The notes beneath the pieces were generated by a model that was not told where the DNA came from, searched no databases, and worked only from the letters and a program-made list of their open reading frames with translations. A stretch of DNA of 64,000 nt from Naegleria gruberi (lineage: Eukaryota): assembly GCA_000004985.1 (NCBI GenBank), contig GG738908.1. The stretch is one strand, 5' to 3'. This document shows positions 1 through 63,871 of this stretch, in pieces (within the stretch, counting starts at the first letter, position 1; every line of letters begins with the position of its first letter). The position numbers were made by a program, and so were the translations under genes.

Positions 1-1735
1 ACCATTACCATATAAAGTTAATAATGTCAAGGCTTGATTAAAATTAAAATTATTATTAATAGTTTTTAATGGTGTTATTTGATTTTTTAATATAGTTTTT
101 GAAATTAATTCTTTATAATTATTCAATTCAGTTTTAATATATTGTAATGATGTTAAATTATTTAATGCAATTCTTAAATTTACTACTTTTGGATATAATT
201 CTAATGATTTAGTATTTAAAACATTACATTGTGATGATACATCATTATAACATGTTGTTTTACCTTGATTATATGCTGCATTTACTAAATATTTATAATT
301 TTCTAATTTTAAATCATCAAAATCATTCAATGTTGTATTTAATTCTTGAAATGTATTACTTGCATTTAATAAATTCATATAATTATTAATATTATTATAA
401 TAATTTAAATAAGTTATATTCATATTAGTTAAATTAATTAAAGAATATTGATTTTTAAATTCTATAATAGGTAATACTTGTTTTAAATTATTTAAATTTA
501 TATTTGATAAATCTAATGTATTATTAAATAAAATAGAAATGGATGAAATAACTTGTTGATTAATATTTGAAATACTATTAATAGAATTATAATATTTTGT
601 AATATCACCATTTACAAAAGTATTTAAAAGAGATTTAGATGAAGAATAATAATCAAATAAATTAACATTTGGTAATTCAACAAAAGTATCATTAATATAT
701 TTAATATCTTTAATTAAATTATCAATACAATTAGTTTGTTGTAAAATTGAATTAAAAAATAAAACTTGTGAATAAATATCTTGAATAAATTGTAAAGATG
801 GAATTGAATTGATGGCAAATGTTAAACTTCTCAAATCATCTTTTAATAATTTATACTTGTTTGGTAATGTTTGATTAACATCTTGATTAAATAAATTTAA
901 ATTATTAAAAGTTAAATTTAAATTTGAAATTTGATTAAAAGATAATTGTAATTCATTTAATTTTAATTTTAATTCAAATTCTGATGGTAATTGTGATAAA
1001 GTATTATTCATATAAATTAAATTATTAATTAATGTTATAATTGGTAATTTAAATAAATTAATATTATTTTGTAATATAATAGTTTCATAATATAAATTTG
1101 ATAATTGTACAATATTACTTGTTTTAAAATGTGATAATTCATATTCATATTGATTAAAATATTTAAAATTTAATGTTGTATTCGTTTGATCTTGTAATGT
1201 TTGTATTGTATTTATAGAATAATCTATTGTTGTAATTTTATTTAAATTTAAATTAATTAAATCAATTAAATTAATTAAATTATTTAAAGAATTTGATAAT
1301 CCAATAATAGAATTTTCAAATATCAAAGTAGATGTTTTTAAATTATTAACATGATCATCACCAACTGTAATAAATAATTGTTTTAATTCAATAATTGAAT
1401 CTTGTAATGGTTTAATTCTATTTAAAATATTATTATTTAAATAATTATTTATATTATTAATATTTAATTCAATATTATTTATAGAAGGTACTTGTTCTGT
1501 TATAGAATAAACACATTGATTCCATTCTGATAATTTACTTGCTGTTGGTAATTTACTTAATAAACTTGTTTTAAATTGATTATATTGTGTTTCTAATTGT
1601 GTTACTATTGTTGGTAAATTTTTAGCAAATTCTAATACACTTGATACAAGTGTTTCAATTTCATTATAACTATTTATACCCTTATTTATAAAACTACTAA
1701 TTTCTATATTAGATTGATATGCAAACACAAACCAT
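1..1735 (-). CDS. Asn/Ile/Leu-rich low-complexity protein, function unknown. The 3' end runs off the window edge. Proposed structure: ATG at 1735..1733, a 52-nt intron (1681..1732) immediately after the start codon, then an open frame down to position 1.
   Basis: The minus-strand frame is open continuously from 1680 to 1 and reads MGINSYNEIETLVSSVLEFAKNLPTIV... The only in-frame way to reach an ATG is a GTTTGT...AAATAAG intron after the start codon. The donor is non-consensus, so the 5' structure is tentative. Confidence 0.45.
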
Positions 1736-1827
1736 ACTCTTTTTTAAATTATATATTTTAAATATATTATTATATTTTATAAATATTAATTTATATTGTT
1801 AATATATTATTATATTATTAATAATTA

Positions 1828-2484
1828 TTATATAATTAAAATTAAATTAATAAATATAACATACATTAATAAAGCAATATTTAAAATAACCCATATAAGT
1901 AAAATAATTCTAAAAGCACATATAATTCTCTTTCTCTTTTCATGATCTTTTGCCCATGCACCATAATTATCTAATCTAAATTTTTGATCTCTTTCACCAA
2001 GTTTACAACAACAACAAGAACCAATTGAATAAAACAATGCACCTAAAAAACAACAAAATTCAACAAGTAAAATTCCTAAACAAATTAAACCTAATGCACC
2101 ATATGCACCAATACCTTCAGCATAATCAACTAACATTGATATAGCTGTTTGATTAGAAATATCAAAATTTGTAATTACTTTAGGTGCTGAACGTGTATCT
2201 AATTTCCTTGTTCCATAATTGTATAATGTTAATCTAGGTAATACTGATACTAATTTTACAATATTCTTATCAATACCTGTTCCTAAATTAAATATTGCTG
2301 ATGATAAGGATTCAATACCTTTATTCATAATAGAATCTCTTAATGATGAATATTCATTACTAGTTGCAATTACACCTGTACTTTCTGTACTTTCTGTATA
2401 TTGTACGTTAAATGTTAATAATATTAATACTATTAACATTATGGAATATATTAATATATTATTATAGATTGATAACCTTTTCAT
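1828..2484 (-). CDS. small membrane protein (218 aa) with an N-terminal signal/anchor and a C-terminal cluster of transmembrane segments including a CCCC motif; function unknown
   Basis: Complete ORF with start and stop. Hydrophobic N-terminus (LIYSIMLIVLILLTF) and C-terminal hydrophobic segments (GALGLICLGILLVEFCCFLGALFYSIGSCCCC, IILLIWVILNIALLMYVIFINLILII). Confidence 0.4.
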   Translation of the reverse strand: MKRLSIYNNILIYSIMLIVLILLTFNVQYTESTESTGVIATSNEYSSLRDSIMNKGIESLSSAIFNLGTGIDKNIVKLVSVLPRLTLYNYGTRKLDTRSAPKVITNFDISNQTAISMLVDYAEGIGAYGALGLICLGILLVEFCCFLGALFYSIGSCCCCKLGERDQKFRLDNYGAWAKDHEKRKRIICAFRIILLIWVILNIALLMYVIFINLILII

Positions 2485-11282: not shown

Positions 11283-11564
11283 TCTTCCATATAGTTACTA
11301 TTAGTATTGTTGTTGATAAAATTTTGCAGAGAATCCTCCTCAATAGAATTTACAGGTTTTTTTTTCTAACGGTTTTCAAACCTTGCTTCCTGATGCTGCA
11401 TGACACTCTTATCTGTAGAGTCAATTCCCGCCCACAAAACCATTCAAAAAATAAAAATATTCAAATAAAAATTTAATAAACCAAAGACACTTTACCTTTA
11501 TCTAAAACTCTCTGTCTTTTTTCACCAACACTATTACAAGGTTAAGTATTTGAATAGAAGCAAA

Positions 11565-14341: not shown

Positions 14342-15779
14342 ATGTCAGCAGCAAATAGTAGTGATGATACAACAACAACAACAGGAAATAATTTATTTCC
14401 ATTGATAAATCATTTGGATCAGGTAAAACAAGCTATCGGATCAGATACTGATGATTTTAAATTCATGACTCAGGATAATTATCTATTCTATTGTTATGGG
14501 AGGGTGAAGACTACAACATTTCCATCAATTGAAAGTGGTGATGATGAACAAATTCAGGATATGAAAAAGATTAGAAGGGAAATTAGAGGGTTAGCCTTTG
14601 ACAAGGATAGTGGAAAGTTGGTGAGCAGATGTTTACACAAGTTTTTTAATTGTAAGTATTTATTTATTACTCTTTATTGTAAACTAAATAATAATATTTG
14701 GAAATATTTGAAAAATTATTGCAATTTTAATAGTGGATGAAAATGCAGAAACAAATACAGAATATTTAGAAAACAAGTATAATCCAAATGGTGATTGTAA
14801 TTTATTGGATATTTTCCTTGTTTTAGAAAAGTTGGATGGTTCAATGATTATGCCAATTATTGTCGATGGTAAAATTGTGTTTAGAACTAAAAGAGGTTAT
14901 TTTAATCAAGTTACAAATCAAGCAGATAAATTTGTAGCTGAATCTCAAGTGAAATATTTGGAATTTTGTACAAAATTAATGAAAGAAGGATATACACCAA
15001 TATTTGAATTTTATTCGAAAGAGAATATGGTGGTAATTGAATATGATTCAACATTTTTGACTTTAATTGCAATTAGATATACAGAAAAGGGAGATTATGT
15101 ACCATACAATGAAATGTGTGAAATGTGTAATGAATTTTCTATTCCATTTGTGAAATGTATTTTCAGTAATACTGACCAAGATGAACAATCCAAAAAGACA
15201 GTTATCAAATCATTCAAACAATTGAAGAGCAAAGTGAATACAATCAAAGGTATTGAGGGAGTTGTCATTCGTCACAAAGTTTCAGGTGAAATGTTTAAAT
15301 TCAAAACCAATTGGTATTCTGAACAACACAAAAAGAAACAACTTGTTACTGATGGTAATCCATCACCAGCACATATTTGGAAATTTGTAATGGATGATTG
15401 TATTGATGATATCATTCCAGTTTTAAATACTGAAAAGGAAAAGCAAGAATTGAGAAGGTTTAACGATGAGGTCTTGAATGCTATTGATGATTGTGCTAAA
15501 AGATCTTTGGAAATTATTGAATTTGCAATGAATTTAGGAAGCGCAAAAGAAACAGCAAGTTACATTGCCCAGGAATCAGGTCATAATACTATTTTCAAAA
15601 AGATTGTTTACAAAATCAAAACAGAAATTGACAAGAAGACTAATCAGCAAGACTACATGTCACCTCAAGATGTTGTGAAATATTTCCTTTTACAATTTAT
15701 TTTCAAGGATTTGAATTTGGTGAAGGAATGTTTAAACACTCCAGACTTGGTTTACACAAATTACAAAATTACAAATTGA
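14342..15779 (+). CDS. T4 Rnl1-family ATP-dependent RNA ligase (stand-alone adenylyltransferase/ligase domain, about 447 aa). Two exons, 14342..14651 and 14734..15779, with an 82-nt intron GTAAGT...TTTTAATAG.
   Basis: Colinear with T4 RNA ligase 1: IRGLAFDKDSGKLVSRCLHKFFNLDEN (T4: [30 protein letters not shown]); motif I lysine adenylation site LEKLDGSMI (T4 LTKEDGSLV); FEFYSKENMVV (T4 FEFVAPTNRIV); motifs IV-V EGVVIRHKVSGEMFKFKTNWY (T4 [20 protein letters not shown]). Confidence 0.75.
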
Positions 15780-24300: not shown

Positions 24301-25521
24301 TTATTTGTTATCATTAAACATGTGCTTTCTTTCAGGGTCTATACCTTCATAAACCATACTCTTTTCGATGGTTTTAACAAATTGGATACCTTTTTGAATT
24401 TCCAAACTCTTTTGCAAAAATTGAATAAATCTTTCATCAGAAATGAAACAATCTGGTGTGATACGTTTCTTTTGATTTTTAACAAGGTCATAATGCTTAA
24501 AAATCCAATACAGAATTTCTAAAGCAAAATCCTTGTCAAATTCAACTTTAAACATGTTACAACCTTGAGTTACAGTCCAACTGCAATAATAACATTGCTT
24601 AGTATTGGTTGCTATCATTTGAAGATACATTTGAGGAATGTAATAAACTGGAACTTCTTCATGGGGTTTCTTCTTAATGTAGGAAAAGGTGAGTGGAATA
24701 TCTCTACCTGACTCACGGTCCTCCTTCTTGACATACTTTTCAACAAAGCATGTTGGACACTTAATTTCTACACATGAATGAATTTCATTAGTATCAATAG
24801 ATTGTAAAAGACCATCTGGGGATGCACCAAGAGCTGGCAACTTTTCAAAGCTCAGTTCATACTTTTCCAAATCTTCCTTTGTAAAAACTTGATTTAATCT
24901 ATCTTCAGTAATGATATAAAATCCAGTTTCACAAAACATGTCATAGTCAAAATGAGAATTCAAAATAGTTGAAACACAATTGAGTTCATGATTAGATCCC
25001 CAATCCATAAAAACTCTCTTAACAATTTCCTCCTTTGGATTTTCATTGGATGGTTGTTTAAGTTGATCAATTTCCTCATCTGTCATACCCAACTCTTTCA
25101 ATTCATCCCTTGTTAAAATTGATTCATAAATTGTACCAACAGTTTCCTTGTCTTGTTTTAAAAATGATTTTGATAAATCTAACATTTTCACAGCTGCAGG
25201 AGAAAAGAATCCGAGAGCTTTACTCAACCTAGAGGCAGTAATTCTATTTGATCTCAACTCGAGCCATTTATCACTTCTTTGTGGAAATAAATGACAATTA
25301 TTTTCATCAATAGGTTCATTAGGAGGATTCAATGGCACATATCTATTAACATAAATTTCCTTGATATCTTCATAGTAAAGTGCTTTCCATTTCACGTTTG
25401 GATTCTCTCCGTTAAATTTGTTATTGTTCTTTTCTTGATGGATTGATAATTTTTCAATACTTTCAACTAGACTTTGCTCATCGGAATGATCAATATGTTC
25501 TTCTTCGAATTGTTGAGACAT
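24301..25521 (-). CDS. YqaJ/lambda-exonuclease-like PD-(D/E)XK nuclease domain protein (viral recombinase-type exonuclease) with an N-terminal acidic extension
   Basis: Motifs RITASRLSKALG (YqaJ motif I), GASPDGLLQS and EIKCPTC (the SPDG ... E-x-K-C-P catalytic core shared by lambda Exo, YqaJ and herpes alkaline nuclease). Convergent with the CASTOR-like gene; only 28 nt separate the two stop codons. Confidence 0.65.
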   Translation of the reverse strand: MSQQFEEEHIDHSDEQSLVESIEKLSIHQEKNNNKFNGENPNVKWKALYYEDIKEIYVNRYVPLNPPNEPIDENNCHLFPQRSDKWLELRSNRITASRLSKALGFFSPAAVKMLDLSKSFLKQDKETVGTIYESILTRDELKELGMTDEEIDQLKQPSNENPKEEIVKRVFMDWGSNHELNCVSTILNSHFDYDMFCETGFYIITEDRLNQVFTKEDLEKYELSFEKLPALGASPDGLLQSIDTNEIHSCVEIKCPTCFVEKYVKKEDRESGRDIPLTFSYIKKKPHEEVPVYYIPQMYLQMIATNTKQCYYCSWTVTQGCNMFKVEFDKDFALEILYWIFKHYDLVKNQKKRITPDCFISDERFIQFLQKSLEIQKGIQFVKTIEKSMVYEGIDPERKHMFNDNK

Positions 25522-27646: not shown

Positions 27647-27656
27647 AATTCCCGCC
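27647..27656 (+). promoter_or_regulatory. E2F-like motif (aATTCCCGCC) about 60 bp upstream of the SNF2/PICH-like ATPase start codon
   Basis: Isolated GC-rich TTCCCGCC element in otherwise AT-rich 5' flank. The same motif class occurs upstream of centrin and beta-tubulin in this window. Confidence 0.3.
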
Positions 27657-27711: not shown

Positions 27712-30700
27712 ATGGAAACTCTAGATATTGAAAATGATATCATTCCAACTATCAAATCGAGAACAAAGAAAAGAGCTTCTAAATCTTCAATTCCTCTCCA
27801 AGACATTACTCAAAAAGTGTTGAACAAGGGAAATGTGATTGCTAAGCAATGCGATGAAGATTATTCGAAAGGTAAAAAGGCGTTAAAAAGGGAATCAGAT
27901 GATGAAGAAATTGCTTCTCCAATCCCAATCAAATCTAGAATGCCAACGAGAAAGCCTTTGAACAAGAATACTGTTGAGGCAAAGCAACCTAAGAGAAAGA
28001 TCTCCCTTCCTTTAATTTCTTCCTCGGATGAAGAAGATGATTTTGAAGAATTCAAACAAACTAAGAGAGTAATAAGGAGAACAACAAGACCTCCAAAGAA
28101 GGTGAAGTTTGAAGAAAGTAGTGGTTCAGAGTTTGAGGAAAGCAGCCCTCAAGTAGTGTTCGATATTAGCAGTGATGAAGATAGTGTTGAGATTTTCAAA
28201 TCTGAGAAGAAGGAAATTATAAAGAAGGAAGTGGTTTTATCTGAGAGTGAAGAAAGCAGTGCTGATGAAGAAGCAGAAGAACAAGATGAGGAACTAATGT
28301 TAGATGAAGAGGAGGACTTTACTTCATCCTCCTCTGAAGAAGATTCGGAAGATGATGATTATCAACCAAAGAAAAGCAAGCCTCAAAGGAAAGCTGCTTC
28401 CAAACCTGTTGCTCCCAAGCCAAGAAAGAATGAAAGGGTTCTCTCTGATGATGAAATGGGCTCTGAAGAGGAAACCAAAGAAAAGCCAAAGGTTACTCTC
28501 ACTATTAAGAAAAAGAAAACTCCTGGCGAATTGAGACAATCTGAGAATGGTTGGTGCTTTGATGTGAAGAATGATCATTACGTTCTCAAGATTGGTGATG
28601 ATACTTACGGTTTTGCTCTATCTGCTGATATATTCGAAAAGCTCTACTCTCACCAACAGATCGGAGTTAAATGGTTAGTTGAGAGACATTTTGCTTCATC
28701 TTTAAAAGGTGGTTTATTAGCAGATGATATGGGACTTGGTAAGACAATTCAAATTTCCTCATTCATTCATGGTTTGTTTCTAACTCAGAAAGCTTCAAGA
28801 GTATTGGTAATTTGTCCAAACTCAGTGGTAGGAAATTGGCAGGTAAGTTACTGTTTTTTTTAATGAAATGTAATTCCATAACAGAAAGAGTTAGAAAAGT
28901 GGGGAGGCGATCAGATTAAGGGTGTTGTTATTTTCCACCAAGTTGGCAAAGCATCTTCAACAAACAGAAAGAGACAAGGTTTTGTAAAGGAGTTTGAGAA
29001 GTATGCAAAACAGGGCGGTGCTGTCATGTTGTCCACCTATCAAACCATAGCAAACCATGTTGAATATCTATCAAAATCCTTTTCAGGTGACAAACTTTTG
29101 GATTCGATCATCATAGATGAAGCCCACAAAATTAAGAATAAGGATGCCAAATGCTCAATGGCTTTGAAAACTCTTGGATCTGCCTCAAAGTTTGGTCTTA
29201 CTGGCACTCCCATAATGAACAAGTTGGTAAGTCATTTTTCAAGTACAGTTACTAATCTGTTTTCCCATCCAATGTACAATAGACTGAATTGTATTCTATT
29301 TACTCTTGGTGTTTTGGAGAAGATTTGCTTGGATCGGTATCAGAGTTCAGTTCCAATTATTCCACACCAATTAATCAGAGCACAAGAAGGGATGCAAACT
29401 ATACTCAAAAAATGGCTGGAAACAGAGCAGCAGATGATTTGAGAGAATTGGTTAAGCCATACCTTTTGATGAGAGGGAAAAACGCAGTCCTTACCATAGA
29501 TAAGAATTTATACAAGTCATCAAGCAACACAAGTGCTAAAATAGGTCAAAAGAATGATCTGATTGTTTGGTGCAAGCTCACTGATGAACAACAACATTGG
29601 TATAAGGAATATCTATCATCTGATGACGTCAAACAAGTGCTTAATAAGACTATGAGTGCCCTTGTTGGTATAGTTATTTTGAAGCAAGTTTGTAATCATG
29701 CCATTATGTGTAGTGGTTATGACGAAATAATGAAGAAAAAGAAAAAAGAACTTGAAGAGGAGGCAAAAGAAGACTTTGGAGCAGACAGCAGCGATGAAGA
29801 TTTCATTGAGGAGAGTGAAGTAGCTCCTTCCATGTCCTTTGATATGGATGATTTAGATGATAAACAGAGAAAAGCAATGGAAAGAAGGCTTAAAAAGATT
29901 CAAGACGATTTGATTAAGGAAAGAATCAGAAATGAACCAATCGAACAATTGATATCTTCTTCCGTTAAAGCACAATTGGTAAAGCACCTTGTTGAGAAAT
30001 GCAACGAAGAAGGACATAGGGTATTGATATTTTCTCAATACACAAGAATGTTGGACATTATTGGACATGTTTTAAAAAGTATGAAGGTAAAATTCAATAG
30101 AATTGATGGAAGTGTTACAAGACACCAAGACAGAACCCAATTGGTGGACGAGTTCAATGAAAATGAGAAGATTAAGTGCTTTATTCTAAGCTCTCAGGTA
30201 TGTTTGGTTTAAATTTATGGAGCTAACAATAATTCGTACAGGCGGGAGGTGTTGGACTTAACCTTGTTTCAGCTTCAAGAGTTATTATTGTTGATGCAAA
30301 CTTTAATCCATCCATAGATGAACAATCAGTTGACCGATGTTACAGAATTGGTCAAAAAGAGAATGTGATTGTTTATAGATTGATTTCAGCAGGTACAATT
30401 GAGGAATATATTTACAAAAGGTAAGTTAAAATCAAATTACTAATTCTTACCACTACGACAGACAAGTAAGCAAGACAACCGTATCTAGAACAGCAACTAT
30501 TGCGTCAAATCAATACAGATATTTGTCTCATGCAGATCTAGAAGAAATGTTCACCCTTAAAAAAACAAGTCATAGTGAAACATGCTCCAGAATGAATAGA
30601 ATTCACTCCAAAGATAGAAGAGATTGTGATGGGCTTGAGGAGCATATTGAAAGTTTGAAGCAAATGGAAAACGTTGTTGGCATATCAGATCATGATGTAT

Positions 30701-30891
30701 TATTCTGTAACCAAGCAGACGATATTGATAGTGATGATGCAGAAATTGAGGAAAGTAATAGATTGACCAGAATCGAATTGGCAAAGAAGATGAGAGAAGC
30801 TTTCCAAAAGATAGCAGGCTCATCATCTAATAGTTCAGAAATCAAACCAGATGGTGAGAAACAAGAAATTGATGCTGAAATAAGTGAATAA
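27712..30891 (+). CDS. SNF2-family DNA-dependent ATPase of the ERCC6/ERCC6L (CSB/PICH)-like subfamily. Exons 27712..28842, 28885..29226, 29283..30197, 30242..30420 and 30462..30891.
   Basis: Motif I LYSHQQIGVKWL...GGLLADDMGLGKTIQ (PICH: GGILADDMGLGKT), motif II DSIIIDEAHKIKN, LTGTPIMNKLTELYSIYSW, and C-terminal helicase motifs AGGVGLNLVSASRVIIVDANFNPSIDEQSVDRCYRIGQKENVIVYRLISAGTIEEYIYKR. Four GTAAGT/GTATGT..AG introns of 41-56 nt with consistent phases. Acidic, Ser/Glu-rich N-terminus. Confidence 0.8.
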
Positions 30892-31782: not shown

Positions 31783-33028
31783 CTATGCTCTCCTATATTT
31801 AATGATATATTCAGGATAACATTGACATTTGTCATAAACAATAAATTCTCTATAAGAATGAATAGAAGTATTAGAATGTCCAATAACACTGTCATAAACT
31901 CTCTTATTTGTAAAACTAATTTCTGGGGGTCTTCTTATTAGTCATTCCGTTTGGAGTAAAATAAGTTTGTTTTCCCAACACAACTCTACATAACAAGATT
32001 GTGAATTCATTATTTGAGTCTGGTGTACAATATTGATCTGATTTTGAACAATATTCGGCAAAATAAATACCAGCTCCAAATAATCCACTCAAACTTGCAA
32101 CTCTTTCATCAGATCCATGCTCAGTAATTGCTTGAACGTATTCAGGTTTAGTTCCATGCCATAAATATTTTTCATTCATATCAGAATTCAATCCACTATT
32201 TTTCATCCATTCGAATGCTGTTGATGATTTTGGAATTTCTTCAGTTTTAACTTGAATATAGTTTGGAGGATCTTGATATGATTGTAAATGATTAACTCTT
32301 GCTGCAAAAGATGAAAATAAAGAATAATTTTCCACTCTATGAACACTTGAAACTATTAATTTAGAATAAAATGCTTTTTGAATCTGATCTCTACCTGATC
32401 CGAGTGTACGGGTGTTACATGTGGAATTCATAATTTCTTGTACAATATCTTTCAAATATTGTGAAACATCAATTACATAATATCTTGAAGTGAATGATAA
32501 GAAAGTATTATTCTTCCAATAACTTGGAAGTGAAACAATTAATTGTTGTGATTGGGTTGATGGTTGAAACACCTTCTCAATCAACCATTGAACACTTGAA
32601 TAATGTCCATTGACTTGAACAATGGATGAATAATTTGATTTCTCATCACTTTTAACACCCAAATATAATTGACTGTTGAGATTGATCAGAGAAACTGAAT
32701 TATGATCACATTTCTTGACAATCCATTGGTAATTTTTCCAAGCAGGATTATCCCATTGAATGATAGAAACTCCCTCATTCATATATCCATTGTCAGCACA
32801 AACATATTTACCGCTGGCTTCACATTTGATGAGAACAATTAGATCATTCTGGTTGTTTCCTGTATCACTACTTTTTATCAAGACAAATTGACTACGACTG
32901 ACACTTGGATTCTCCCATAATTGAAAATAGGCTCCATTATTTGAAAAATCACTAGAAATATTCAAATATTTCCCACTGTTAACATTTTTAATAGTAACAG
33001 GTGTGTTTAATAGTGCTTGAACATGCAT
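31783..33028 (-). CDS. ricin-B lectin (beta-trefoil) plus PARP-type ADP-ribosyltransferase catalytic domain protein. Intact ORF 31916..33028. The catalytic C-terminus, including the Glu motif, continues in the +2 frame down to a stop at 31783..31785 after a 1-nt frameshift at a G5/C5 homopolymer (31925..31929).
   Basis: N-terminal QxW repeats (FQLWENP, IIQWDNP, YQWIV, VQWLIEK). PARP signature YLWHGTKPEYVQAITEHG...GLFGAGIYFAEYCSKSDQYC...ILLCRVVLGK. The downstream frame encodes FTNKRVYDSVIGHSNTSIHSYREFIVYDKCQCYPEYIIKYRRA*, matching the tankyrase C-terminus HSVTG...[21 protein letters not shown]. Removing one C from the CCCCC run fuses the two frames. Confidence 0.7.
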
Positions 33029-35601: not shown

Positions 35602-35779
35602 TGAACTATATTGATTTCAATAGCAGACTATAGTAGATTAGAATAATATACAATCATTGAATCTTTTCTTATAGTACCTCAACACAAATAGTTCTAATTG
35701 AAAAATACAAGATCTTGTATTGTGGTTAAAACTTTGGCGCCAAAATGGTGTACGAATAAAAACACAAATTGAAAAAAAA

Positions 35780-36287
35780 ATGTTGACATCCCTACCATTT
35801 CAACTCGTTGTATTAGGAAACACTATTTGGTCTTTTGTTGTTATTGCAATATCCATAATTACACTGATCGTAAAGGGATCCATATTGCTTTATCCTTCAT
35901 ATGCTCTTGCGTTGGAATTTATTGGATGGTTCTGTTATGCAATCATCACGTATGCAAACTTGAAATTAAGTATGTAAATGTATTAATGCTTGATTGTTTG
36001 AACATTGACATTCCGAATACCTTAGATTCACTTGGAAATTTCACTGAAAATTATACACCAATTTTCTTGAGCTTGCCATTTCTATTGTTAATGTTGGGAG
36101 GTTCAATTTATTTTCTTTGTCTTCAAGTATATGTGTAAGTGGAATCAAAAATGATAATATTGATCAATTATGTAATAACAGATTAATGTTTGAAGTTATT
36201 TTCAACAGTATTTCCCTTGTATTAATTGTAGCAAACTTTGTTGCCTCTGTAATTGTTGGACTAACATTTGTTAGATTTGCTGTTTAA
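35780..36287 (+). CDS. TMEM216/TMEM17-family tetraspan membrane protein (about 135 aa). Exons 35780..35969, 36026..36134 and 36182..36287.
   Basis: MLTSLPFQLVVLGNTIWSFVVIAISIITLIVKGSILLYPSYALALEFIGW resembles the TMEM216 core (ILFFLNSYYSAVYFLAEVLMFIYKVVLLPYP). Four predicted TM helices. Two GT..AG introns (56 and 47 nt) with consistent phases. Confidence 0.55.
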
Positions 36288-37097: not shown

Positions 37098-37106
37098 TTT
37101 CCCGCC
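37098..37106 (+). promoter_or_regulatory. E2F-like motif TTTCCCGCC about 65 bp upstream of the centrin ATG
   Basis: An exact TTTSSCGC-class element in an otherwise AT-rich promoter. Confidence 0.35.
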
Positions 37107-37167: not shown

Positions 37168-37686
37168 ATGCAAAAATACGGTTCTAAGAAGATTGGTGCA
37201 ACCAGTGCTACATCAAGCAATAAGCAAAAGGTACAAATTGAATTAACTGATGAACAAAGACAAGAAATTAAAGAAGCCTTTGATTTATTCGATATGGATG
37301 GTTCAGGTAAAATTGATGCAAAGGAATTGAAGGTGGCAATGAGAGCACTCGGTTTTGAACCAAAGAAAGAGGAAATTAAAAAGATGATCTCCGGAATTGA
37401 TAATGGATCTGGTAAAATTGATTTTAATGATTTCCTTCAATTAATGACAGCAAAAATGAGTGAAAAGGATAGCCATGCCGAAATAATGAAAGCTTTCCGT
37501 CTCTTTGATGAAGACGATTCTGGATTTATTACATTTGCAAATCTCAAAAGAGTTGCTAAAGATTTGGGTGAAAATATGACTGATGAAGAATTGAGAGAAA
37601 TGATTGAAGAAGCTGATCGATCGAATCAGGGACAAATCTCAAAGGAAGATTTCCTCCGTATTATGAAAAAGACAAACCTCTTTTAA
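37168..37686 (+). CDS. centrin (caltractin), an EF-hand protein with four EF hands and a basic N-terminal extension
   Basis: [54 protein letters not shown]...[76 protein letters not shown] is near-identical to canonical centrins. The ORF track ATG at 37087 is probably 5' UTR; the likely start is MQKYGSKK at 37168. Confidence 0.85.
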
Positions 37687-42292: not shown

Positions 42293-44308
42293 GTGTTTAG
42301 TTATTGCTTAATCACCCTTAAAAAAATGCCACAAGTATCCATTCGGTATGATCAAGGTTTGATATGGGAGAAAAACATCCCTTTTCAAACTGCAGTTTCA
42401 AATGTTCTAGAAGATTTCAAAGCCTTAACCGGTCACTCTTGGAAATTTTACTCTTCAAAGTGGGTGCTAAACGAGAGACTCAGAATAGAACATGATCTGA
42501 TACTTGAGGCAAAACGTACTAACAATCCCATCACAGTTTCGGTTTGCAGATCAAATTTCTTATCTAACGAAATTGTTAATGTAGTAGTTACTCTATCTAG
42601 GGACCAGCAAATAGGGGATGCACTAGAAACGTTTCTCCATGCTAATTCTGGACAGTTTGGTTTTATTATCAACAACAAACCTGTTGTCAGCAGTGATGAG
42701 TGTAGCTGGTATTGCAGAGACAATGTTATCATCATACACGCTACTGTGGCAGCAGTTATGGTTCCTGGTAAAGACTATTCTGTCCACAAAAAACAATACC
42801 TGTTCTTTGACAAAACTTTATTTATCAAACGAGCTATAGAAACAACAGCAGCAGGGTTTCCAATTGTAATTTTAAGACCCAGAAGATTTGGAAAGTCTTT
42901 CAACTTGAGAATGCTTAGGGCATTTGTTGATATTAAGCAAACAGAAGATTTATTTTCAAGAACAAAAATTGAGAAACATATCACATTTTGGGAGAATCAT
43001 TATCACAAACATCCTGTTGTCTCTTTGTCTTTCGGTATGAAACCATTTTCTTCCTTTACTGCGTTTGTTTCGAACCTATGGATGTACATATCTAAGGCGG
43101 CTGAACGCTACCAAGAGTTGGAAACAAGTTCCAAATTGAATGAAATGGAGAAATCTCAATTTAAAAAGATACTCTCAGGCAATTGTGATGAAAGTTCCTT
43201 ATCTTTACTGATTGGCTTACTCTACAGACACTTTAATTCTAAGGTTGTTTTATTGATCGATGAATATGAAACTCCAGTCCTGGCACATATTAATTCAACA
43301 TTTTCAAAAGAGGTTCTAGATTTATTCTTTGGCATGTTCATATTCTTGAAAAATGATGAGTTCATTTTGGAAAAGATACAAACAGTACTTTTTAGTGGGG
43401 TGATTTTATTGAAAGATAAAGGATACCTGTCTGGAATGAATAATTTAGTTGCTTACTCTCTGGATAAAGACAATTACTTTAGTGAAGATTTTGGAGTTAC
43501 TGAAAATGAGCTATGCCAATTTCTTACTACTTTAAGACATGGAGAAGATGTTAGTCTTGAGCTTACCAAATTGAAATCATGGTACAATGGCTATGATGTT
43601 AACAATACTCCCAAATTTCTGTTCAATGTTTGGTCGCTGAGTTGTTATTTCTCGTTTGGTAGAACTGATTATTATTGGATTAAAACAGGATCGATTGATG
43701 AACTTGCAATGTTAATCAACTCATCTTGTGTCGATGTTATTGGTGATCTTGAATTGTTAATCAATGGAAAGGAGATAAGGAAAAAATTCTCTTCAAGTGT
43801 TGACTATAAGGCCCTTTCTTTAGAATGCTCAAGAGAAAAAACCTCACTCTTTTGGCAGATGATGTATTATGCTGGATATTTAACAGGATCTAATTCAAAG
43901 ACCAAACTATTTCATCTTGAGCAACCCAATGAGAATGACGACGATGTGATACGTTTGAGGATTCCAAACTTTGAGGTAAAATCAGCTGTTTGCGAACTAA
44001 TGGAACGCCTTCAAAGACACCCAAATCTAATTCTAAACGAAACTGTTTTTATTGTGCTAACCTTTAAAGGTGCTACACATGCCATCTATCAAACAATTGA
44101 ACTTACCAACTATTACAAATGGATCAATTGTTTCGAAGAGGAACTAGAATGCAAAGGCGTTGATGAAAAGTATTCTATCAAGTACTATTTCCCGAAATTA
44201 GAACAGTACTGTTCATTCACAAAATCTGCATGTAAAACAGTATTTCCTACTTTTACAAATAAAGAATTTAAATTTGTTATTGAAAATAAGATGGAAACTG
44301 ATAAATGA
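42293..44308 (+). CDS. 'AAA-ATPase-like' (PF09820) plus C-terminal PD-(D/E)XK nuclease-like (PF08011/PDDEXK_9) family protein, with an ~190-aa N-terminal extension of unknown fold
   Basis: Diagnostic block LFFDKTLFIKRAIETTAAGFPIVILRPRRFGKSFNLRMLRAFVD (family consensus YVDKT..I..L.......FLSRPRRFGKSL..SML) and LLIDEYETP (ILIDEYD.P). C-terminal ...AGYLTGSNSKTKLFHLEQPNE...IRLRIPNFEV... The N-terminal 190 aa (PQVSIRYDQGLIWEKNIPFQ...) have no recognised match. Confidence 0.65.
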   Translation: MFSYCLITLKKMPQVSIRYDQGLIWEKNIPFQTAVSNVLEDFKALTGHSWKFYSSKWVLNERLRIEHDLILEAKRTNNPITVSVCRSNFLSNEIVNVVVTLSRDQQIGDALETFLHANSGQFGFIINNKPVVSSDECSWYCRDNVIIIHATVAAVMVPGKDYSVHKKQYLFFDKTLFIKRAIETTAAGFPIVILRPRRFGKSFNLRMLRAFVDIKQTEDLFSRTKIEKHITFWENHYHKHPVVSLSFGMKPFSSFTAFVSNLWMYISKAAERYQELETSSKLNEMEKSQFKKILSGNCDESSLSLLIGLLYRHFNSKVVLLIDEYETPVLAHINSTFSKEVLDLFFGMFIFLKNDEFILEKIQTVLFSGVILLKDKGYLSGMNNLVAYSLDKDNYFSEDFGVTENELCQFLTTLRHGEDVSLELTKLKSWYNGYDVNNTPKFLFNVWSLSCYFSFGRTDYYWIKTGSIDELAMLINSSCVDVIGDLELLINGKEIRKKFSSSVDYKALSLECSREKTSLFWQMMYYAGYLTGSNSKTKLFHLEQPNENDDDVIRLRIPNFEVKSAVCELMERLQRHPNLILNETVFIVLTFKGATHAIYQTIELTNYYKWINCFEEELECKGVDEKYSIKYYFPKLEQYCSFTKSACKTVFPTFTNKEFKFVIENKMETDK

Positions 44309-51621: not shown

Positions 51622-53274
51622 ATGAAATTTCAAATCAATAAGGAGCAAATACAGCAATACTTTCATCTACCATTGGAAGAGGCTGCTATCAAGTTGGGAT
51701 GTTGCTCCTCTGTTCTGAAGAGAACATGTAGACAATTAGGTATTAAACGATGGCCCTACCGAAGAATGAAAAGCCTCTCAAAACGACAAAATCAACTCCA
51801 ACAACAATTAACAACCCTCCACGATCAATACATGAAGAGTAGGAAACAATTGGAAGATGTTGAAGGAGAGATGGATGTTATTATCAAGGAAGAATTGAGT
51901 GGTATTGCTGAAGGTGCTACTGTCATTATAGATGATGCAAATATTGATGTTGATCCAACACTGGATTATGATCAGAATGATATTATTAATATTAATACTG
52001 CTTCTTCTTCAACTGGTAATCCTACTACTTTTAACTTTAATAACAACTTTGAAATCATGTTGATTCCTTCATCATCAACATCATCAACATCTTCACCACC
52101 TTCAAGTAGTACATTGGCATCATCGTCTTCGGTATCATCTCTTCCTAATCATCATGTACATACATCATCCTCATATGTTTCTCCACAACAACAACAACCA
52201 TCAAAACCTGTTATTTCTCCATCACAACAACATGTTATTAGAGATGTTGAGTTGAACATGCAGCACAACAACAATAGCAACATGGATATGATGATGCCTA
52301 TTCATAATGCGAGTTCTAATTCGTTCACTGCTCCATCCACATCCTTCAATAACAACCTTCATCGTACAATGTGTGAATCCAATAATGGAGATCCAATTTC
52401 AATGACTACTAACATGCATATTTCTCCTCAGCAACAACAAGTAGGTCATCAGCAACATGCTAACAATCTTTGCAATACATCATTACATGAATCATTTGAC
52501 CATGCTTTTGGAAATGTTGTGAATAATAATCAATTTATGCAATCTTCGCATGTTGATGCTAATAAGCACTCATGTAATGGAATATCAAATACAGCATCAT
52601 CAAGTAGTAGTGGATGGAATAATGAAAAATCAGAATTGGATACATCTCAATATAATAATTTGGATAATGAACACTCGTTCGATGCATCTGTACATGAATC
52701 AATTAATACTGCTGATTATACAACGAGAGGGAGAGGAGGTTATTCATTTCCAAATCATAAACATGATTCAAGTAGGTCACCATCATCAAATTATGCCATG
52801 CAACATGTGGAGCCATGTTTTAGACCATTAATTTCAACATTGGATGGAGTGAATGTAAATGCTGCACTAACTAATGATAGAGGAGTGTTAATGTGGTTTT
52901 CTAAGGGGCTAATGGAAACACTCCCATCCTATTTTAATACAAAGGCAGTGAATAAGGATTATACTAAGGATGATACATTTAAAGGATCAACTATTGATGT
53001 ATATGAATCGTTTTATAGAAGAAGAGCCACACATGGAACTATTAGAATGATTCAGTGCTTTTTTGAAAGATATGTAGTGGTGGATAGTCATGGAGTGATG
53101 CTTGATCATTACTCTGCGCATCCATCTGCTGGATCGCATTACATGTGGTATTTGCATGTGAGGAAGGAAACTGATTTTTCTCTCATTTCATCTTATTTCA
53201 ATCCTTCCGATAGAAATAAGGCACTTCAGTTTGGGGTACCTTATACTTTCGAATTGGAGGATGACAACAAGTAG
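51622..53274 (+). CDS. RWP-RK domain transcription factor
   Basis: N-terminal FHLPLEEAAIKLGCCSSVLKRTCRQLGIKRWPYRRMKS (RWPxRK motif) followed by Ser/Asn/Gln-rich low complexity and a conserved C-terminal block (...RMIQCFFERYVVVDSHGVMLDHYSAHPSAG...). Preceded by an unusually C-rich ~600-nt upstream leader. Confidence 0.75.
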   Translation: MKFQINKEQIQQYFHLPLEEAAIKLGCCSSVLKRTCRQLGIKRWPYRRMKSLSKRQNQLQQQLTTLHDQYMKSRKQLEDVEGEMDVIIKEELSGIAEGATVIIDDANIDVDPTLDYDQNDIININTASSSTGNPTTFNFNNNFEIMLIPSSSTSSTSSPPSSSTLASSSSVSSLPNHHVHTSSSYVSPQQQQPSKPVISPSQQHVIRDVELNMQHNNNSNMDMMMPIHNASSNSFTAPSTSFNNNLHRTMCESNNGDPISMTTNMHISPQQQQVGHQQHANNLCNTSLHESFDHAFGNVVNNNQFMQSSHVDANKHSCNGISNTASSSSSGWNNEKSELDTSQYNNLDNEHSFDASVHESINTADYTTRGRGGYSFPNHKHDSSRSPSSNYAMQHVEPCFRPLISTLDGVNVNAALTNDRGVLMWFSKGLMETLPSYFNTKAVNKDYTKDDTFKGSTIDVYESFYRRRATHGTIRMIQCFFERYVVVDSHGVMLDHYSAHPSAGSHYMWYLHVRKETDFSLISSYFNPSDRNKALQFGVPYTFELEDDNK

Positions 53275-62017: not shown

Positions 62018-63364
62018 TTATTCATATTGTGGTTCAGTTTCACCTTCAATATCACCATCAACTTGATCATCGACAGTGGCATCTTGGTATTGTTGATATT
62101 CATTAACCAAATCAGTCAAGTTGGATTCAGCTTCAGTGAATTCCATTTCATCCATACCTTGATCAATGTAAGTGTGTAAGAAGGCCTTTCTCTTGTACAT
62201 TTGTTGGAATTGAGTACCAATTCTCTTGAAAACTTCTTGGATAGCAGTTGAGTTACCAATGAAAGTACCAGAAACCTTTTGACCAACTGGAGGAACATCA
62301 CAAACAGATGACTTGATATTGTTTGGAATCCATTCAACAAAGTTTTGAGAATACTTTCTTTGCATTCCCAACATTTGTTCATCAATTTCGTTAGTTGACA
62401 AGTTAAGACCTCTGAAAGTAGCACTGGCAGCCAAATATTTACCCATAGATGGATCACAAGCAGCCATCATATTCTTCTTATTGAACATTTGTGAAGTCAA
62501 TTCAGCAATTGACAAGGCAGAGTATTGTTGAGATGAAGTAGCAGCCAAAGGAGCAGAACCAACAACGAAGAAGTGCAATCTTGGGAATGGAATCAAATTG
62601 ACAGCCAACTTTCTCAAATCAGAGTTCAATTGACCTGGGAATCTCAAGCTTGAAGTAACACCAGACATGACACCAGCAACCAAATTATTCAAATCAGCAA
62701 ATGATGGTTGTGGTAACTTTAAGGTTCTAGTACAAATATCGAACAATGCTTCATTGTCCAAACAGAAAACTTCATCAGCAGATTCAATCAATTGATGCAA
62801 ACTTAAAGTAGCATTGTATGGTTCAACAACAGTTTCAGACATTTTTGGTGATGGCAAAACAGAGAAAGCAGCCAACATTCTATCAGGGAAATCTTCCTTC
62901 AATTTAGATAACAACAAAGTACCCAAACCAGAACCAGTACCACCACCCAATGAGTGAGTCAATTGGAATCCTTGCAAACATTCACAATGTTCAACTTCCT
63001 TTCTCAAAACATCCATAATTTGGTCAGCCAATTCAGCACCTTCAGTATAATGTCCCTTTGCCCAGTTGTTACCAGCTGAACCTTCAGAAGCAATGAAATT
63101 ATCTGGACGGAACAATGTACCACTCTTTGATGATTTAACAGTGTCTAAAACTGATGATTCTAAATCAACCAAGACACTTCTTGGTACGTAACGGTTTCCT
63201 TGGCTTTCAGAGAAGTAGACACCCAAGTTTTCCTTTAAAATTGGATTAGTTTCGACGAATTCACCATCGGCATTTAAACCATGTTCATTACGAATGGTTT
63301 CCCAGAAATGTTGACCAATTTGGTTACCACATTGACCAACGCTGATTGATACGATTTCTCTCAT
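62018..63364 (-). CDS. tubB: beta-tubulin (divergent isotype)
   Basis: [17 protein letters not shown]..., [59 protein letters not shown]..., FPRLHFF, ...[27 protein letters not shown] with an acidic C-terminal tail. Roughly two-thirds identical to canonical beta-tubulins over the full length. Confidence 0.9.
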
Positions 63365-63466
63365 TTCTATTAGATTATTTAGTGTTGTGTTTTTTTTTGT
63401 TGTGAAAATAATTTTTTGGCACCTGGCAGGTTAAATACGCTTGTGTGACACTTTGTGGTTGTAATG

Positions 63467-63531
63467 TTGGCGCTTTTTTGATATTTTTAAAAATGAGCGC
63501 CAAAGTGTTAAACGTTCACAATTGGCGCCAA
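63467..63531 (+). promoter_or_regulatory. cluster of three E2F-like GC-rich motifs (TGTTGGCGC; GCGCCAAAG, the reverse complement of CTTTGGCGC; palindromic TTGGCGCCAA) 100-170 bp upstream of the beta-tubulin ATG
   Basis: The three TTGGCGC cores lie within 65 bp at 63467..63473, 63497..63504 and 63522..63531, in an otherwise AT-rich promoter. Confidence 0.4.
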
Positions 63532-63871
63532 CATGAGACTTGCCTTTTTGCTGGTGTGGGCAACAAATTTCGGTTGAAGTTTGAAGATTGTATCAAACTA
63601 ATCCGTTGATATGCAGTTTTCACAACTGTAAAGAGTGATGGAGGGTTTATTAAAACGTCAAACTGTTAGTTCACAATCTTCACAATAATATTTCAAACTG
63701 ACTCATTTACAAACCCAATAGCATTGAACAAATAAAAGGATTTTGAGTTATATTGCGTGCCCAAAGCGAACAGACATGTTTCATATGTTTTCAATACGCA
63801 GCAACAGGTTTTGAGTTCCCATGAAATTCAAGTATTGTTAAATAAAGGTATAATTGCAAATAAACGTAAGG

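What the first reader, a model, noticed from the sequence alone, without database searches (positions are those of the whole stretch)
63467..63531. E2F-like GC-rich motifs upstream of three cell-cycle/centrosome genes (beta-tubulin, centrin, PICH-like helicase)
In AT-rich 5' flanks, three TTGGCGC cores (one an exact CTTTGGCGC on the bottom strand, one palindromic TTGGCGCCAA) lie within 65 bp, 100-170 bp upstream of the tubulin ATG. TTTCCCGCC lies ~65 bp upstream of centrin (37098..37106) and aATTCCCGCC ~60 bp upstream of the ERCC6L/PICH-like ATPase (27647..27656). All fit the E2F TTTSSCGC consensus. This suggests conserved E2F/DP-type cell-cycle control of these genes in this organism.
Basis: partly seen in the sequence, partly recalled or inferred. 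Interest (0 to 1): 0.5.

Follow-up and report, generated by a model that had tools for sequence, protein, structure and literature searches.

The report
Conserved E2F-type promoter sites in Naegleria
The rare GC-rich boxes upstream of the mitosis-specific beta-tubulin and centrin genes of Naegleria gruberi are real, are kept in the same promoters of related amoebae, and match the binding site of the E2F cell-cycle transcription factors this organism encodes. This is an expected kind of control in a lineage where it had not been described, and it also touches cilium and basal-body genes.

Summary
The window is Naegleria gruberi. TTGGCGC has 6 matches against 0.70 expected, and TTCCCGCC has 3 against 0.13. 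Every TTSSCGC site lies in a 5' flank.

The tubulin is the mitosis-specific beta-tubulin JGI 55900, which is transcribed periodically. One is a perfect palindrome, TTTGGCGCCAAA, 37 bp upstream of a TMEM17/216-like (ciliary transition-zone) gene. The other lies upstream of an unknown gene.

Eleven orthologous or paralogous promoters were examined from N. fowleri, N. lovaniensis, Willaertia and metagenomic relatives. Ten carry a TTSSCGC site within 250 bp of the ATG, against 4 of 100 other promoters (p = 2e-10). An unbiased k-mer search ranks TTTGGCG first.

N. gruberi encodes E2F, DP, a DEL/E2F7-8-like protein and RB. Its E2F recognition helix is essentially identical to that of human E2F4.

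Best explanation: these are functional E2F-family binding sites. The "cell-cycle/centrosome" framing is only partly right. Naegleria mitosis has no centrioles, and centrin is induced during differentiation. The helicase belongs to the ERCC6/Rad26 family and is not shown to be PICH. Binding itself is untested. This is a new member of a known kind, of moderate interest.

The parts
63522..63531 (.). Distal E2F-like site of the mitotic beta-tubulin promoter. It is the palindrome TTGGCGCCAA, 158-167 bp upstream of the ATG.
   Evidence: Equivalent sites occur in the orthologous promoters.
63497..63504 (-). Middle E2F-like site, TTTGGCGC. This is the only strict TTTSSCGC match in the tubulin flank.
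63467..63473 (+). Proximal E2F-like site, TTGGCGC, 103-109 bp upstream of the ATG. In a near-identical metagenomic strain (L001) the equivalent reads TTGGCGG.
63511..63517 (-). GAACGTT box between the E2F-like sites. It is also present between the sites in the N. fowleri and N. lovaniensis orthologous promoters.
63416..63425 (-). CAGGTGCCAA, the N. gruberi variant of the box GTCACTTGCCAA. That box lies at about -85 to -115 in the mitotic beta-tubulin promoters of N. fowleri (both paralogs), N. lovaniensis and Willaertia.
62018..63364 (-). Mitosis-specific beta-tubulin gene (JGI 55900; XP_002671129.1), intronless, 448 aa.
   Evidence: Both qPCR primers of Velle et al. 2022 match exactly.
37098..37106 (+). 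E2F-like site TTTCCCGCC (extended form TTTCCCGCCCAAAA), 62-70 bp upstream of the centrin ATG.
   Evidence: It is positionally conserved in N. lovaniensis, N. fowleri, a gruberi-like metagenomic species and two other heteroloboseans.
37168..37686 (+). Centrin-1 / caltractin gene (P53441), 172 aa.
35733..35744 (.). Perfect palindromic E2F consensus TTTGGCGCCAAA, 37-48 bp upstream of the ATG of a TMEM17/216-like gene.
35781..36287 (+). Three-exon gene for a small four-transmembrane protein of the Transmemb_17 family (TMEM17/TMEM216, ciliary transition-zone proteins).
   Evidence: Hand-spliced. Pfam PF09799, E = 1.7e-13.
27648..27656 (+). E2F-like site ATTCCCGCC, 56-64 bp upstream of the ATG of the SNF2 ATPase.
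   Evidence: No ortholog could be retrieved to test conservation.
27712..30890 (+). Multi-exon SNF2-family ATPase of the ERCC6/CSB/Rad26 group. The end coordinate is approximate.
11425..11432 (+). TTCCCGCC, which reads GGCGGGAA in the gene's orientation. It lies 143-150 bp upstream of the ATG (11282) of an uncharacterised Ser-rich 451-aa protein gene on the minus strand.

Best explanation
The GC-rich boxes are binding sites for an E2F-family factor: the N. gruberi E2F-DP heterodimer and/or the atypical DEL/E2F7-8-like protein. The sites follow TT[G/C][G/C]CG[C/G], and are often extended to TTGGCGCCAA or TTCCCGCCAA. They lie in the proximal promoter, roughly 40-200 bp before the ATG.

At the mitosis-specific beta-tubulin gene a cluster of three sites would recruit E2F-DP. 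RB would hold the gene off outside the proliferative window, and CDK-dependent release of RB would allow the burst of transcription before mitosis. [quoted passage not shown]

The same element sits in front of centrin-1, a TMEM17/216-like gene and N. fowleri ODAD1. There it would let an E2F-family member repress these genes in growing amoebae, or activate them when cells leave the cycle and build basal bodies and flagella.

Shown: the sites exist, are rare, are specific to these promoters, and are conserved across species; the trans-factors exist with a conserved recognition helix; the tubulin mRNA is periodic.

Inferred: that E2F-family proteins bind the sites, the sign of regulation, and the involvement of RB.
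For: 1. Rarity and placement. TTGGCGC has 6 matches against 0.70 expected, and TTCCCGCC has 3 against 0.13. All seven TTSSCGC sites in the window lie in 5' flanks.

2. Conservation at the mitotic beta-tubulin. Both paralog lineages carry 2-3 such sites at about -105 to -205 in N. fowleri, N. lovaniensis, Willaertia magna and a metagenomic species, while the flanks diverge.

3. Conservation at centrin. The sites are TTTCCCGCC in N. gruberi, 2 x TTCCCGCCAA in a gruberi-like species, TTTGGCGCC in N. lovaniensis and CCGCCAAAA in N. fowleri. In two other heteroloboseans they are TTGCCGCC and TTCCCGCC. In three of these roughly 20-kb loci the centrin promoter holds the only strict hit, or none exists elsewhere.

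4. Independent test set. 10 of 11 promoters from other genomes have a strict site within 250 bp, against 4 of 100 other promoters (Fisher p = 2e-10). There are 14 sites in 2.75 kb against 13 in 174 kb.

5. Unbiased k-mer ranking. The top 7-mers are TTTGGCG (p = 7.5e-23), TTGGCGC, TTCCCGC and TTGGCGG.

6. Trans-factors. NgruE2F, NgruDP, NgruDEL and NgruRB are listed in Medina et al. 2016. Pfam finds E2F_TDP, CC-MB and DP domains. The DNA-binding domain aligns with human E2F4 in the DNA complex 1CF7 with the identical helix [22 protein letters not shown].

7. Motif identity. TTCCCGCC is the ChIP-seq motif of human E2F7, and TTTSSCGC is the classic E2F site (PMC3333892).

8. Expression. Mitotic tubulin mRNAs peak 30 min after induction of mitosis and fall by 80 min. 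They are enriched at least 2-fold in synchronised cells.

9. Precedent. Dictyostelium RblA represses S-phase and mitotic genes together (PMC3386910).
Against: - There is no binding or mutational evidence.
- Transcription start sites are unknown, so positions are relative to the ATG only.
- Canonical E2F targets of Naegleria (MCM, PCNA, RNR, cyclins) could not be retrieved, so it is unknown whether the classic S-phase regulon carries the motif (the search failed).
- The motif-bearing genes belong to opposite programmes. Mitotic tubulin is on in dividing amoebae. Centrin is on only in differentiation. A single simple E2F/RB switch does not explain both.
- N. fowleri and N. lovaniensis promoters are partly alignable, so not all 11 test promoters are independent.
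- In an AT-rich genome any GC-rich regulatory motif would look highly significant. The E2F assignment rests on resemblance to the consensus.
Confidence: 0.66

Rival explanations
1. The boxes are functional, conserved cis-elements, but a different factor binds them. It could be heterolobosean-specific or otherwise unrelated (for example a C2H2 zinc finger that recognises GC-boxes, or another winged-helix protein). This factor would coordinate microtubule-cytoskeleton genes (spindle tubulin, basal body, transition zone, dynein docking). The resemblance to the E2F consensus would be coincidental.
For: - The identifiable motif-bearing genes are mostly microtubule-organelle genes from two different programmes. 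They are not classic S-phase genes.
- Kennard et al. describe a set of genes induced in both mitosis and differentiation, which fits a shared cytoskeletal regulator.
- TTCCCGCCC contains an Sp/KLF-type GC box (CCGCCC).
- No binding data exist.
Against: - The commonest shared core, CGCCAAA/TTTGGCG, is present in 10 of 13 promoters.
- The palindromes TTTGGCGCCAAA and TTGGCGCCAA match the E2F consensus over 10-12 positions, not just a GC core.
- N. gruberi has E2F-family proteins with an unchanged recognition helix, and these must bind such sites somewhere.
- The ERCC6-family repair ATPase is a typical E2F-type target and is not a cytoskeletal gene.
Confidence: 0.2
2. The boxes belong to a DREAM/MuvB-type CDE-CHR module. 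This is the animal G2/M promoter architecture, in which a GC-rich CDE lies next to a TTTGAA CHR bound by LIN54. They would not be stand-alone E2F activator sites.
For: - The tubulin gene peaks at mitosis.
- TTTGAA or TTCAAA lies next to a CGCCAAA box in several orthologs. Examples are CCGCCAAAATTTGAA in N. fowleri and N. lovaniensis, CCGCCAAAAATTCAAA in L013, and GCGCCAAACGAAAAATTTGAA in Willaertia.
Against: - TTTGAA is not significantly enriched in the seven tubulin promoters: 9 occurrences against 5.15 expected, p = 0.078.
- Spacing to the GC box is not fixed.
- In N. gruberi the nearest TTCAAA lies about 30 bp away from the sites.
- MuvB components in Naegleria were not examined.
Confidence: 0.08
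3. The motifs are chance GC-rich words or a general core-promoter or structural feature with no gene-specific regulatory role.
For: Short motifs in small samples can mislead, and the discovery promoters were chosen because they contain the motif.
Against: - No shuffle reaches the observed counts.
- Only 4 of 100 other promoters carry the motif, against 10 of 11 orthologous target promoters that were not part of the discovery.
- There is no Rfam RNA in the region.
- The sites occur in both orientations with variable spacing, which argues for recognition of double-stranded DNA.
Confidence: 0.03

Closest known systems
Canonical E2F sites (TTTSSCGC; palindromic TTTSGCGCSAAA) in animal and plant cell-cycle promoters, and the E2F7/8 (DEL) motif TTCCCGCC
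   Same: - The sequence is the same, including a perfect TTTGGCGCCAAA and several TTCCCGCC(AA).
- The location is promoter-proximal.
- Sites occur in tandem or inverted multiples.
- E2F, DP, DEL and RB are encoded, with a recognition helix identical to E2F4.
   Different: - The organism is a heterolobosean, where no E2F target has been described in the literature held here.
- The identified targets are a mitosis-only tubulin isotype and basal-body and cilium genes, not the classic G1/S replication genes.
- Binding is untested.
Dictyostelium RblA (RB orthologue) regulon
   Same: A protist in which the RB/E2F axis gates mitotic and spindle genes together with S-phase genes at one point of the cycle (PMC3386910). 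This is the best precedent for E2F-type sites on a spindle tubulin gene.
   Different: In Dictyostelium the evidence is genetic (an rblA knockout with transcriptomics). Here the evidence is only cis-element conservation. Naegleria adds differentiation-induced ciliary genes to the motif-bearing set.
Multicilin/GEMC1-E2F4/5-DP1 programme of vertebrate multiciliated cells
   Same: An E2F-family complex is redeployed in non-dividing, differentiating cells to switch on genes for massive centriole and basal-body production (review PMC12183034). In Naegleria, E2F-like sites precede centrin-1, a transition-zone TMEM17/216-like gene and ODAD1. These genes are used when amoebae stop dividing and assemble basal bodies de novo.
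   Different: Multicilin and GEMC1 are animal proteins and no Naegleria counterpart is known. Only three ciliary genes were seen here, and only the centrin site was tested for conservation.
Animal CDE/CHR (DREAM-MuvB) G2/M promoters
   Same: The gene peaks at mitosis. GC-rich boxes sometimes abut TTTGAA.
   Different: TTTGAA is not enriched and its spacing is not fixed.

Membership tests
E2F/DP (and DEL/E2F7-8) binding site | The sequence matches TTTSSCGC, its palindromic extension TTTSGCGCSAAA, or TTCCCGCC. | tested here: met
   There are four strict 8-mer matches in the window, at three sites, one of which is the palindrome TTTGGCGCCAAA. All other sites match the 7-mer TTSSCGC. TTCCCGCC is the E2F7 ChIP-seq motif.
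E2F/DP (and DEL/E2F7-8) binding site | Proximal-promoter location near the transcription start. | tested here: inconclusive
   All sites lie 37-205 bp upstream of the ATG in 5' intergenic DNA. No TSS data were available.
E2F/DP (and DEL/E2F7-8) binding site | The genome encodes E2F and DP with a conserved winged-helix DNA-binding domain (RRXYD). | tested here: met
   NgruE2F, NgruDP and NgruDEL come from the Medina et al. 2016 supplement. Pfam finds E2F_TDP at 1.3e-28 and 1.8e-18. The alignment to E2F4 in 1CF7 has E = 2.6e-25 with an identical recognition helix.
E2F/DP (and DEL/E2F7-8) binding site | Non-random enrichment in specific promoters and conservation in orthologous promoters. | tested here: met
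   10 of 11 orthologous promoters against 4 of 100 others, p = 2e-10. The E2F-like words are the top-ranked k-mers.
E2F/DP (and DEL/E2F7-8) binding site | The target genes are cell-cycle periodic or RB-dependent. | tested here: inconclusive
   Mitotic beta-tubulin is periodic. Centrin-1 is induced in differentiation and mitosis is acentriolar. Expression of the other three genes is unknown, and no RB perturbation exists.
E2F/DP (and DEL/E2F7-8) binding site | The motif is present on the canonical S-phase regulon (MCM, PCNA, RNR, CDC6) of the same genome. | not tested
   These loci could not be fetched. The last protein search returned nothing and look-ups were exhausted.
E2F/DP (and DEL/E2F7-8) binding site | Physical binding by E2F-family proteins, and loss of regulation when the site is mutated. 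| not testable with these tools
   This needs EMSA, DAP-seq, ChIP or reporter assays.
CDE/CHR (DREAM-MuvB) module | A CHR (TTYGAA) at fixed short spacing downstream of a GC-rich CDE. | tested here: not met
   TTTGAA occurs 9 times against 5.15 expected, p = 0.078. TTCGAA occurs 0 times. Spacing is variable.
Fungal MBF/SBF sites (MCB ACGCGT, SCB CRCGAAA) | An ACGCGT core in G1/S promoters. | tested here: not met
   ACGCGT occurs 0 times in the 64-kb window. The organism is not a fungus.
RFX X-box / FOXJ1 ciliary promoter elements | The cognate factor is present and an X-box (GTNRCC-N0-3-RGYAAC) lies upstream of the ciliary genes. | tested here: not met
   RFX and FOXJ1 are reported absent from Naegleria (PMC12183034). 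The observed boxes are GGCGCC/CCCGCC cores, not X-boxes.

The most novel reading that the evidence does not exclude
In Naegleria an E2F-family element would be more than a cell-cycle switch. It would be the missing cis-regulatory code for de novo basal-body and cilium assembly. The same site type that marks the mitosis-only tubulin genes also marks centrin-1, a transition-zone TMEM17/216-like gene and ODAD1.

E2F/DP/DEL/RB would then arbitrate between 'divide' (spindle tubulin on) and 'differentiate' (basal-body and flagellar genes on). That would be an ancient counterpart of the vertebrate Multicilin-E2F4/5 programme, in an organism that lacks RFX, FOXJ1 and XAP5.
Probability: 0.25. Interest if true: 0.75.

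Novelty: new member of a known kind. Interest (0 to 1): 0.5.

Why it matters
E2F/RB control is thought to date back to the last eukaryotic common ancestor. Direct cis-regulatory evidence outside animals, plants and Dictyostelium is scarce, and none was found for Heterolobosea.

These sites give concrete, conserved and testable targets:
- a three-site promoter on a mitosis-only tubulin;
- a perfect palindrome on a transition-zone gene;
- a conserved site on centrin-1.

Naegleria lacks the known ciliary transcription factors (RFX, FOXJ1, XAP5), and how it induces hundreds of basal-body and flagellar genes within minutes is an open question. An E2F-type element on such genes offers a specific hypothesis. 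It can be checked at once against the published mitosis and differentiation RNA-seq clusters. The conserved mitotic-tubulin promoter is also a candidate cell-cycle-regulated promoter for the expression tools Naegleria still lacks.

Tried and rejected
1. A chimeric protein query was built from pieces of NgruCycB1, CycA, DEL, RB and E2F, plus N. fowleri ODAD1 and TMEM17. The aim was to fetch canonical E2F-target and ciliary loci with the last protein search. It returned nothing at E <= 1e-20, so canonical targets remain unchecked.

2. A metagenome scan for relatives of the SNF2 ATPase gave one 29%-identical, unrelated SNF2. Conservation of the 27648-27656 site is therefore untested.

3. Supplementary expression tables of Kennard et al., and the Fritz-Laylin and Cande 2010 paper, are not held. 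Expression classes of the TMEM17-like, SNF2 and unknown genes could not be looked up.

4. The CDE/CHR reading was rejected because TTTGAA is not enriched.

5. Fungal MCB/SBF sites were rejected because there is no ACGCGT and the organism is Naegleria.

6. An RNA gene or RNA structure was rejected. Rfam finds only the 8 tRNAs. The short inverted repeats in 63464-63534 are simply the oppositely oriented sites.

7. Synteny did not bring in the N. fowleri or N. lovaniensis TMEM17 or helicase genes. The centrin neighbourhoods are rearranged.

8. A PICH identity for the helicase could not be confirmed. The best solved-structure matches are ERCC6/CSB and Rad26.

Full report
**Identity of the window.** Exact look-up of four encoded proteins shows the window is Naegleria gruberi. 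The tubulin is XP_002671129.1 and the centrin is caltractin P53441, on a 259-kb scaffold. The sequence is about 31% G+C and gene-dense, and it carries eight tRNA genes.

Both qPCR primers that Velle et al. 2022 list for "mitotic beta-tubulin JGI 55900" match the tubulin gene exactly, at 62659-62681 and 62541-62562. The gene downstream of the flagged motifs is therefore one of the two divergent beta-tubulins used only for the mitotic spindle. Its mRNA is enriched in mitotically synchronised cells. By RNA-seq it peaks 30 min after induction of mitosis, falls by 80 min, and is not induced in differentiation.

**The observation.**
- Three TTGGCGC cores lie at 63467, 63497 (bottom strand, CTTTGGCGC) and 63522-63531 (palindrome TTGGCGCCAA). 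They are 103-167 bp upstream of the ATG at 63364.
- TTTCCCGCC lies at 37098-37106, 62 bp before the centrin ATG.
- AATTCCCGCC lies at 27647-27656, 56 bp before the ATG of the SNF2 ATPase.

Dinucleotide-preserving shuffles give 0.70 expected TTGGCGC against 6 observed, and 0.13 expected TTCCCGCC against 3 observed. No shuffle reaches either count. GGCGC occurs at only five places in 64 kb, and four of them are TTGGCGC in 5' flanks.

Two corrections apply. First, only some sites fit the strict 8-mer TTTSSCGC; the rest fit the 7-mer. One is a perfect palindromic consensus, TTTGGCGCCAAA, at 35733-35744. The other is a third TTCCCGCC at 11425.

**Which genes carry the motif.**
- The palindrome at 35733 lies 37 bp upstream of a three-exon gene for a small four-transmembrane protein. 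This protein hits Pfam Transmemb_17 (TMEM17/TMEM216, ciliary transition-zone proteins) at E = 1.7e-13.
- The site at 11425 lies 143 bp upstream of an uncharacterised Ser-rich protein gene on the minus strand.
- The helicase is an ERCC6/CSB/Rad26-family SNF2 ATPase by its best solved-structure matches. A specifically PICH-like identity is not established.
- The other roughly 27 promoters of the window have no TTSSCGC site. Their genes include an ABC transporter, PPR, an RNA ligase, PARP, RWP-RK, VWA and RCC1-like proteins.

**Conservation.** I fetched the loci of the mitotic beta-tubulin orthologs and paralogs from N. fowleri (both paralogs), N. lovaniensis, Willaertia magna and two contigs of a metagenomic relative. 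All carry two or three E2F-like boxes between about -105 and -205:
- N. fowleri ortholog: TTCCCGC and CCGCCAAAA.
- N. lovaniensis: CCGCCAAAA and GCGCCAAAA.
- Second N. fowleri paralog: GCGCCAAAAAA and TTCCCGCC.
- Willaertia: TTGGCGCC, TTGCCGCC and TTGGCGCCAAA.

An alignment of three orthologous promoters shows the boxes as conserved islands.

The centrin promoters behave the same way:
- N. gruberi: TTTCCCGCC at -69.
- A gruberi-like species: two copies of TTCCCGCCAA at -69 and -38.
- N. lovaniensis: TTTGGCGCC at -111, the only strict hit in that 20.5-kb locus.
- N. fowleri: CCGCCAAAA at the aligned position.
- Two further heteroloboseans: TTGCCGCC and TTCCCGCC.

**Statistics on sequences not used for discovery.** In the 11 promoters from other genomes, 10 have at least one strict TTSSCGC within 250 bp of the ATG. 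That is 14 sites in 2.75 kb against 13 in the remaining 174 kb. Among 100 other called promoters in the same loci, only 4 have one (Fisher p = 2e-10).

One of those four is N. fowleri ODAD1, an outer-dynein-arm docking gene with GCGCCAAAAAAA at -44.

An unbiased count of all 7-mers in the 13 tubulin and centrin promoters against 241 kb ranks TTTGGCG first. It occurs 13 times, in 10 of 13 promoters, against 0.11 expected (p = 7.5e-23). TTGGCGC, TTCCCGC and TTGGCGG follow.

One caveat applies. N. fowleri and N. lovaniensis are close enough that their promoters partly align, so the 11 are not fully independent.

**The trans-factors.** The source data of Medina et al. 2016 contain N. gruberi E2F, DP, a two-domain DEL (E2F7/8-like) protein and RB. 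I confirmed the E2F_TDP, CC-MB and DP domains with Pfam. The E2F DNA-binding domain aligns with human E2F4 from the E2F4-DP2-DNA crystal structure 1CF7 at E = 2.6e-25. The recognition helix, [22 protein letters not shown], is identical.

TTCCCGCC is the predominant ChIP-seq motif of human E2F7, and TTTSSCGC is the classic site. No paper in the held library links E2F motifs to Naegleria promoters.

**Mechanism.** The best-supported reading is that these are E2F-family binding sites. For the mitotic tubulin, a cluster of three sites would give RB-gated, periodic transcription. The closest protist precedent is Dictyostelium, where the RB orthologue represses S-phase and mitotic and spindle genes together.

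The "cell-cycle/centrosome" label does not fit the other targets. Naegleria amoebae divide without centrioles, and centrin-1 is one of the basal-body genes induced early in the amoeba-to-flagellate differentiation. The TMEM17/216-like gene and ODAD1 are also ciliary.

The same element type therefore marks genes of two mutually exclusive programmes. This could reflect different family members (activating E2F-DP against repressive DEL or E2F-RB) or repression in one state and activation in the other. Kennard et al. do report a class of genes induced in both mitosis and differentiation.

The parallel with vertebrate multiciliated cells is suggestive. There, Multicilin/GEMC1 with E2F4/5 drives basal-body amplification in non-dividing cells, and Naegleria lacks RFX, FOXJ1 and XAP5. 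The parallel rests on three genes, and only one of them was tested for conservation.

**Rivals.**
- An unrelated factor with an E2F-like specificity cannot be excluded without binding data (about 0.2).
- A DREAM-type CDE/CHR module is weakly suggested by TTTGAA next to some boxes. TTTGAA is not enriched (p = 0.078) and its spacing varies.
- Chance or a generic promoter feature is excluded.
- No RNA family overlaps the region.

**What could not be done.** Canonical S-phase targets, the two mitotic alpha-tubulin genes, the second N. gruberi mitotic beta-tubulin and the flagellar tubulin genes could not be retrieved. Expression tables were not held. Transcription start sites are unknown.

**Verdict.** A plausible and more novel extension reaches basal-body and cilium genes.

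Noticed in passing
window 35733-36287: A perfect palindromic E2F consensus, TTTGGCGCCAAA, lies 37 bp upstream of a three-exon TMEM17/TMEM216-like (ciliary transition-zone) gene. Its flanks (AAACTTT..CGCC..AAAA) closely resemble those of the centrin site 1.4 kb downstream.
   Followed up: partly
L005 3600-3650 (N. fowleri VFQX01000015.1): GCGCCAAAAAAA lies 44 bp upstream of ODAD1, an outer-dynein-arm docking complex gene. This is another ciliary gene with an E2F-like site, 6 kb from the second mitotic beta-tubulin gene.
   Followed up: no
window 63416-63425; L002 9895, L004 9901, L005 9886, L007 9915: A second conserved box, GTCACTTGCCAA (E-box-like CAnnTG followed by CCAA), lies about 85-115 bp upstream of the ATG in mitotic beta-tubulin promoters. 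Four of the five exact CACTTGCCAA copies in 241 kb are at this position. N. gruberi has CAGGTGCCAA and L013 has CACCTGCCAA.
   Followed up: partly
window 63511-63517; L002 about 9812; L004 about 9812; L013 about 3040: GAACGTT (palindromic core AACGTT) lies between or next to the E2F-like sites in the mitotic beta-tubulin promoters of N. gruberi, N. fowleri, N. lovaniensis and a metagenomic relative.
   Followed up: no
L007 15630-15670 (Willaertia magna): A tandem pair, ATTCCCGCCAATTTTTTTGCCCGCCAA, lies inside a called 7tm_3/RGS gene. It looks like a promoter module and may mark an unannotated or mis-called gene start.
   Followed up: no
L001 (ENA ERZ929261 contig, 2.6 kb): A metagenome contig encodes a tubulin identical to N. 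gruberi's. Its promoter differs by about 5 substitutions in 400 bp. One converts the proximal site GCGCCAA to CCGCCAA, which is still E2F-like. Another changes CAGGTGCCAA to CAGTTGCCAA.
   Followed up: no
window 24301-25521 (-), 14733-15779 (+), 42293-44308 (+): Three genes carry domains more typical of phages or bacteria: a YqaJ-like viral recombinase domain (conserved next to the Castor1/ACT gene in N. fowleri and N. lovaniensis too), a T4-type RNA ligase, and 'AAA-ATPase_like' PF09820.
   Followed up: no
window 51622-53274 (+): A gene for an RWP-RK domain transcription factor (Pfam E = 4.8e-23), with long Ser/Asn/Gln-rich regions.
   Followed up: no
window 1-2000 and 8 tRNA genes (3120, 3914, 20267, 20456, 40254, 57536, 59419, 63872): The first 2 kb are extremely AT-rich (15.8% G+C). 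Eight tRNA genes are scattered between protein genes. Two are tRNA-Ala(AGC) copies, and one of these lies only about 340 bp beyond the tubulin promoter sites.
   Followed up: no
window 31916-33028 (-): A gene combining a ricin-B lectin domain with a PARP catalytic domain.
   Followed up: no
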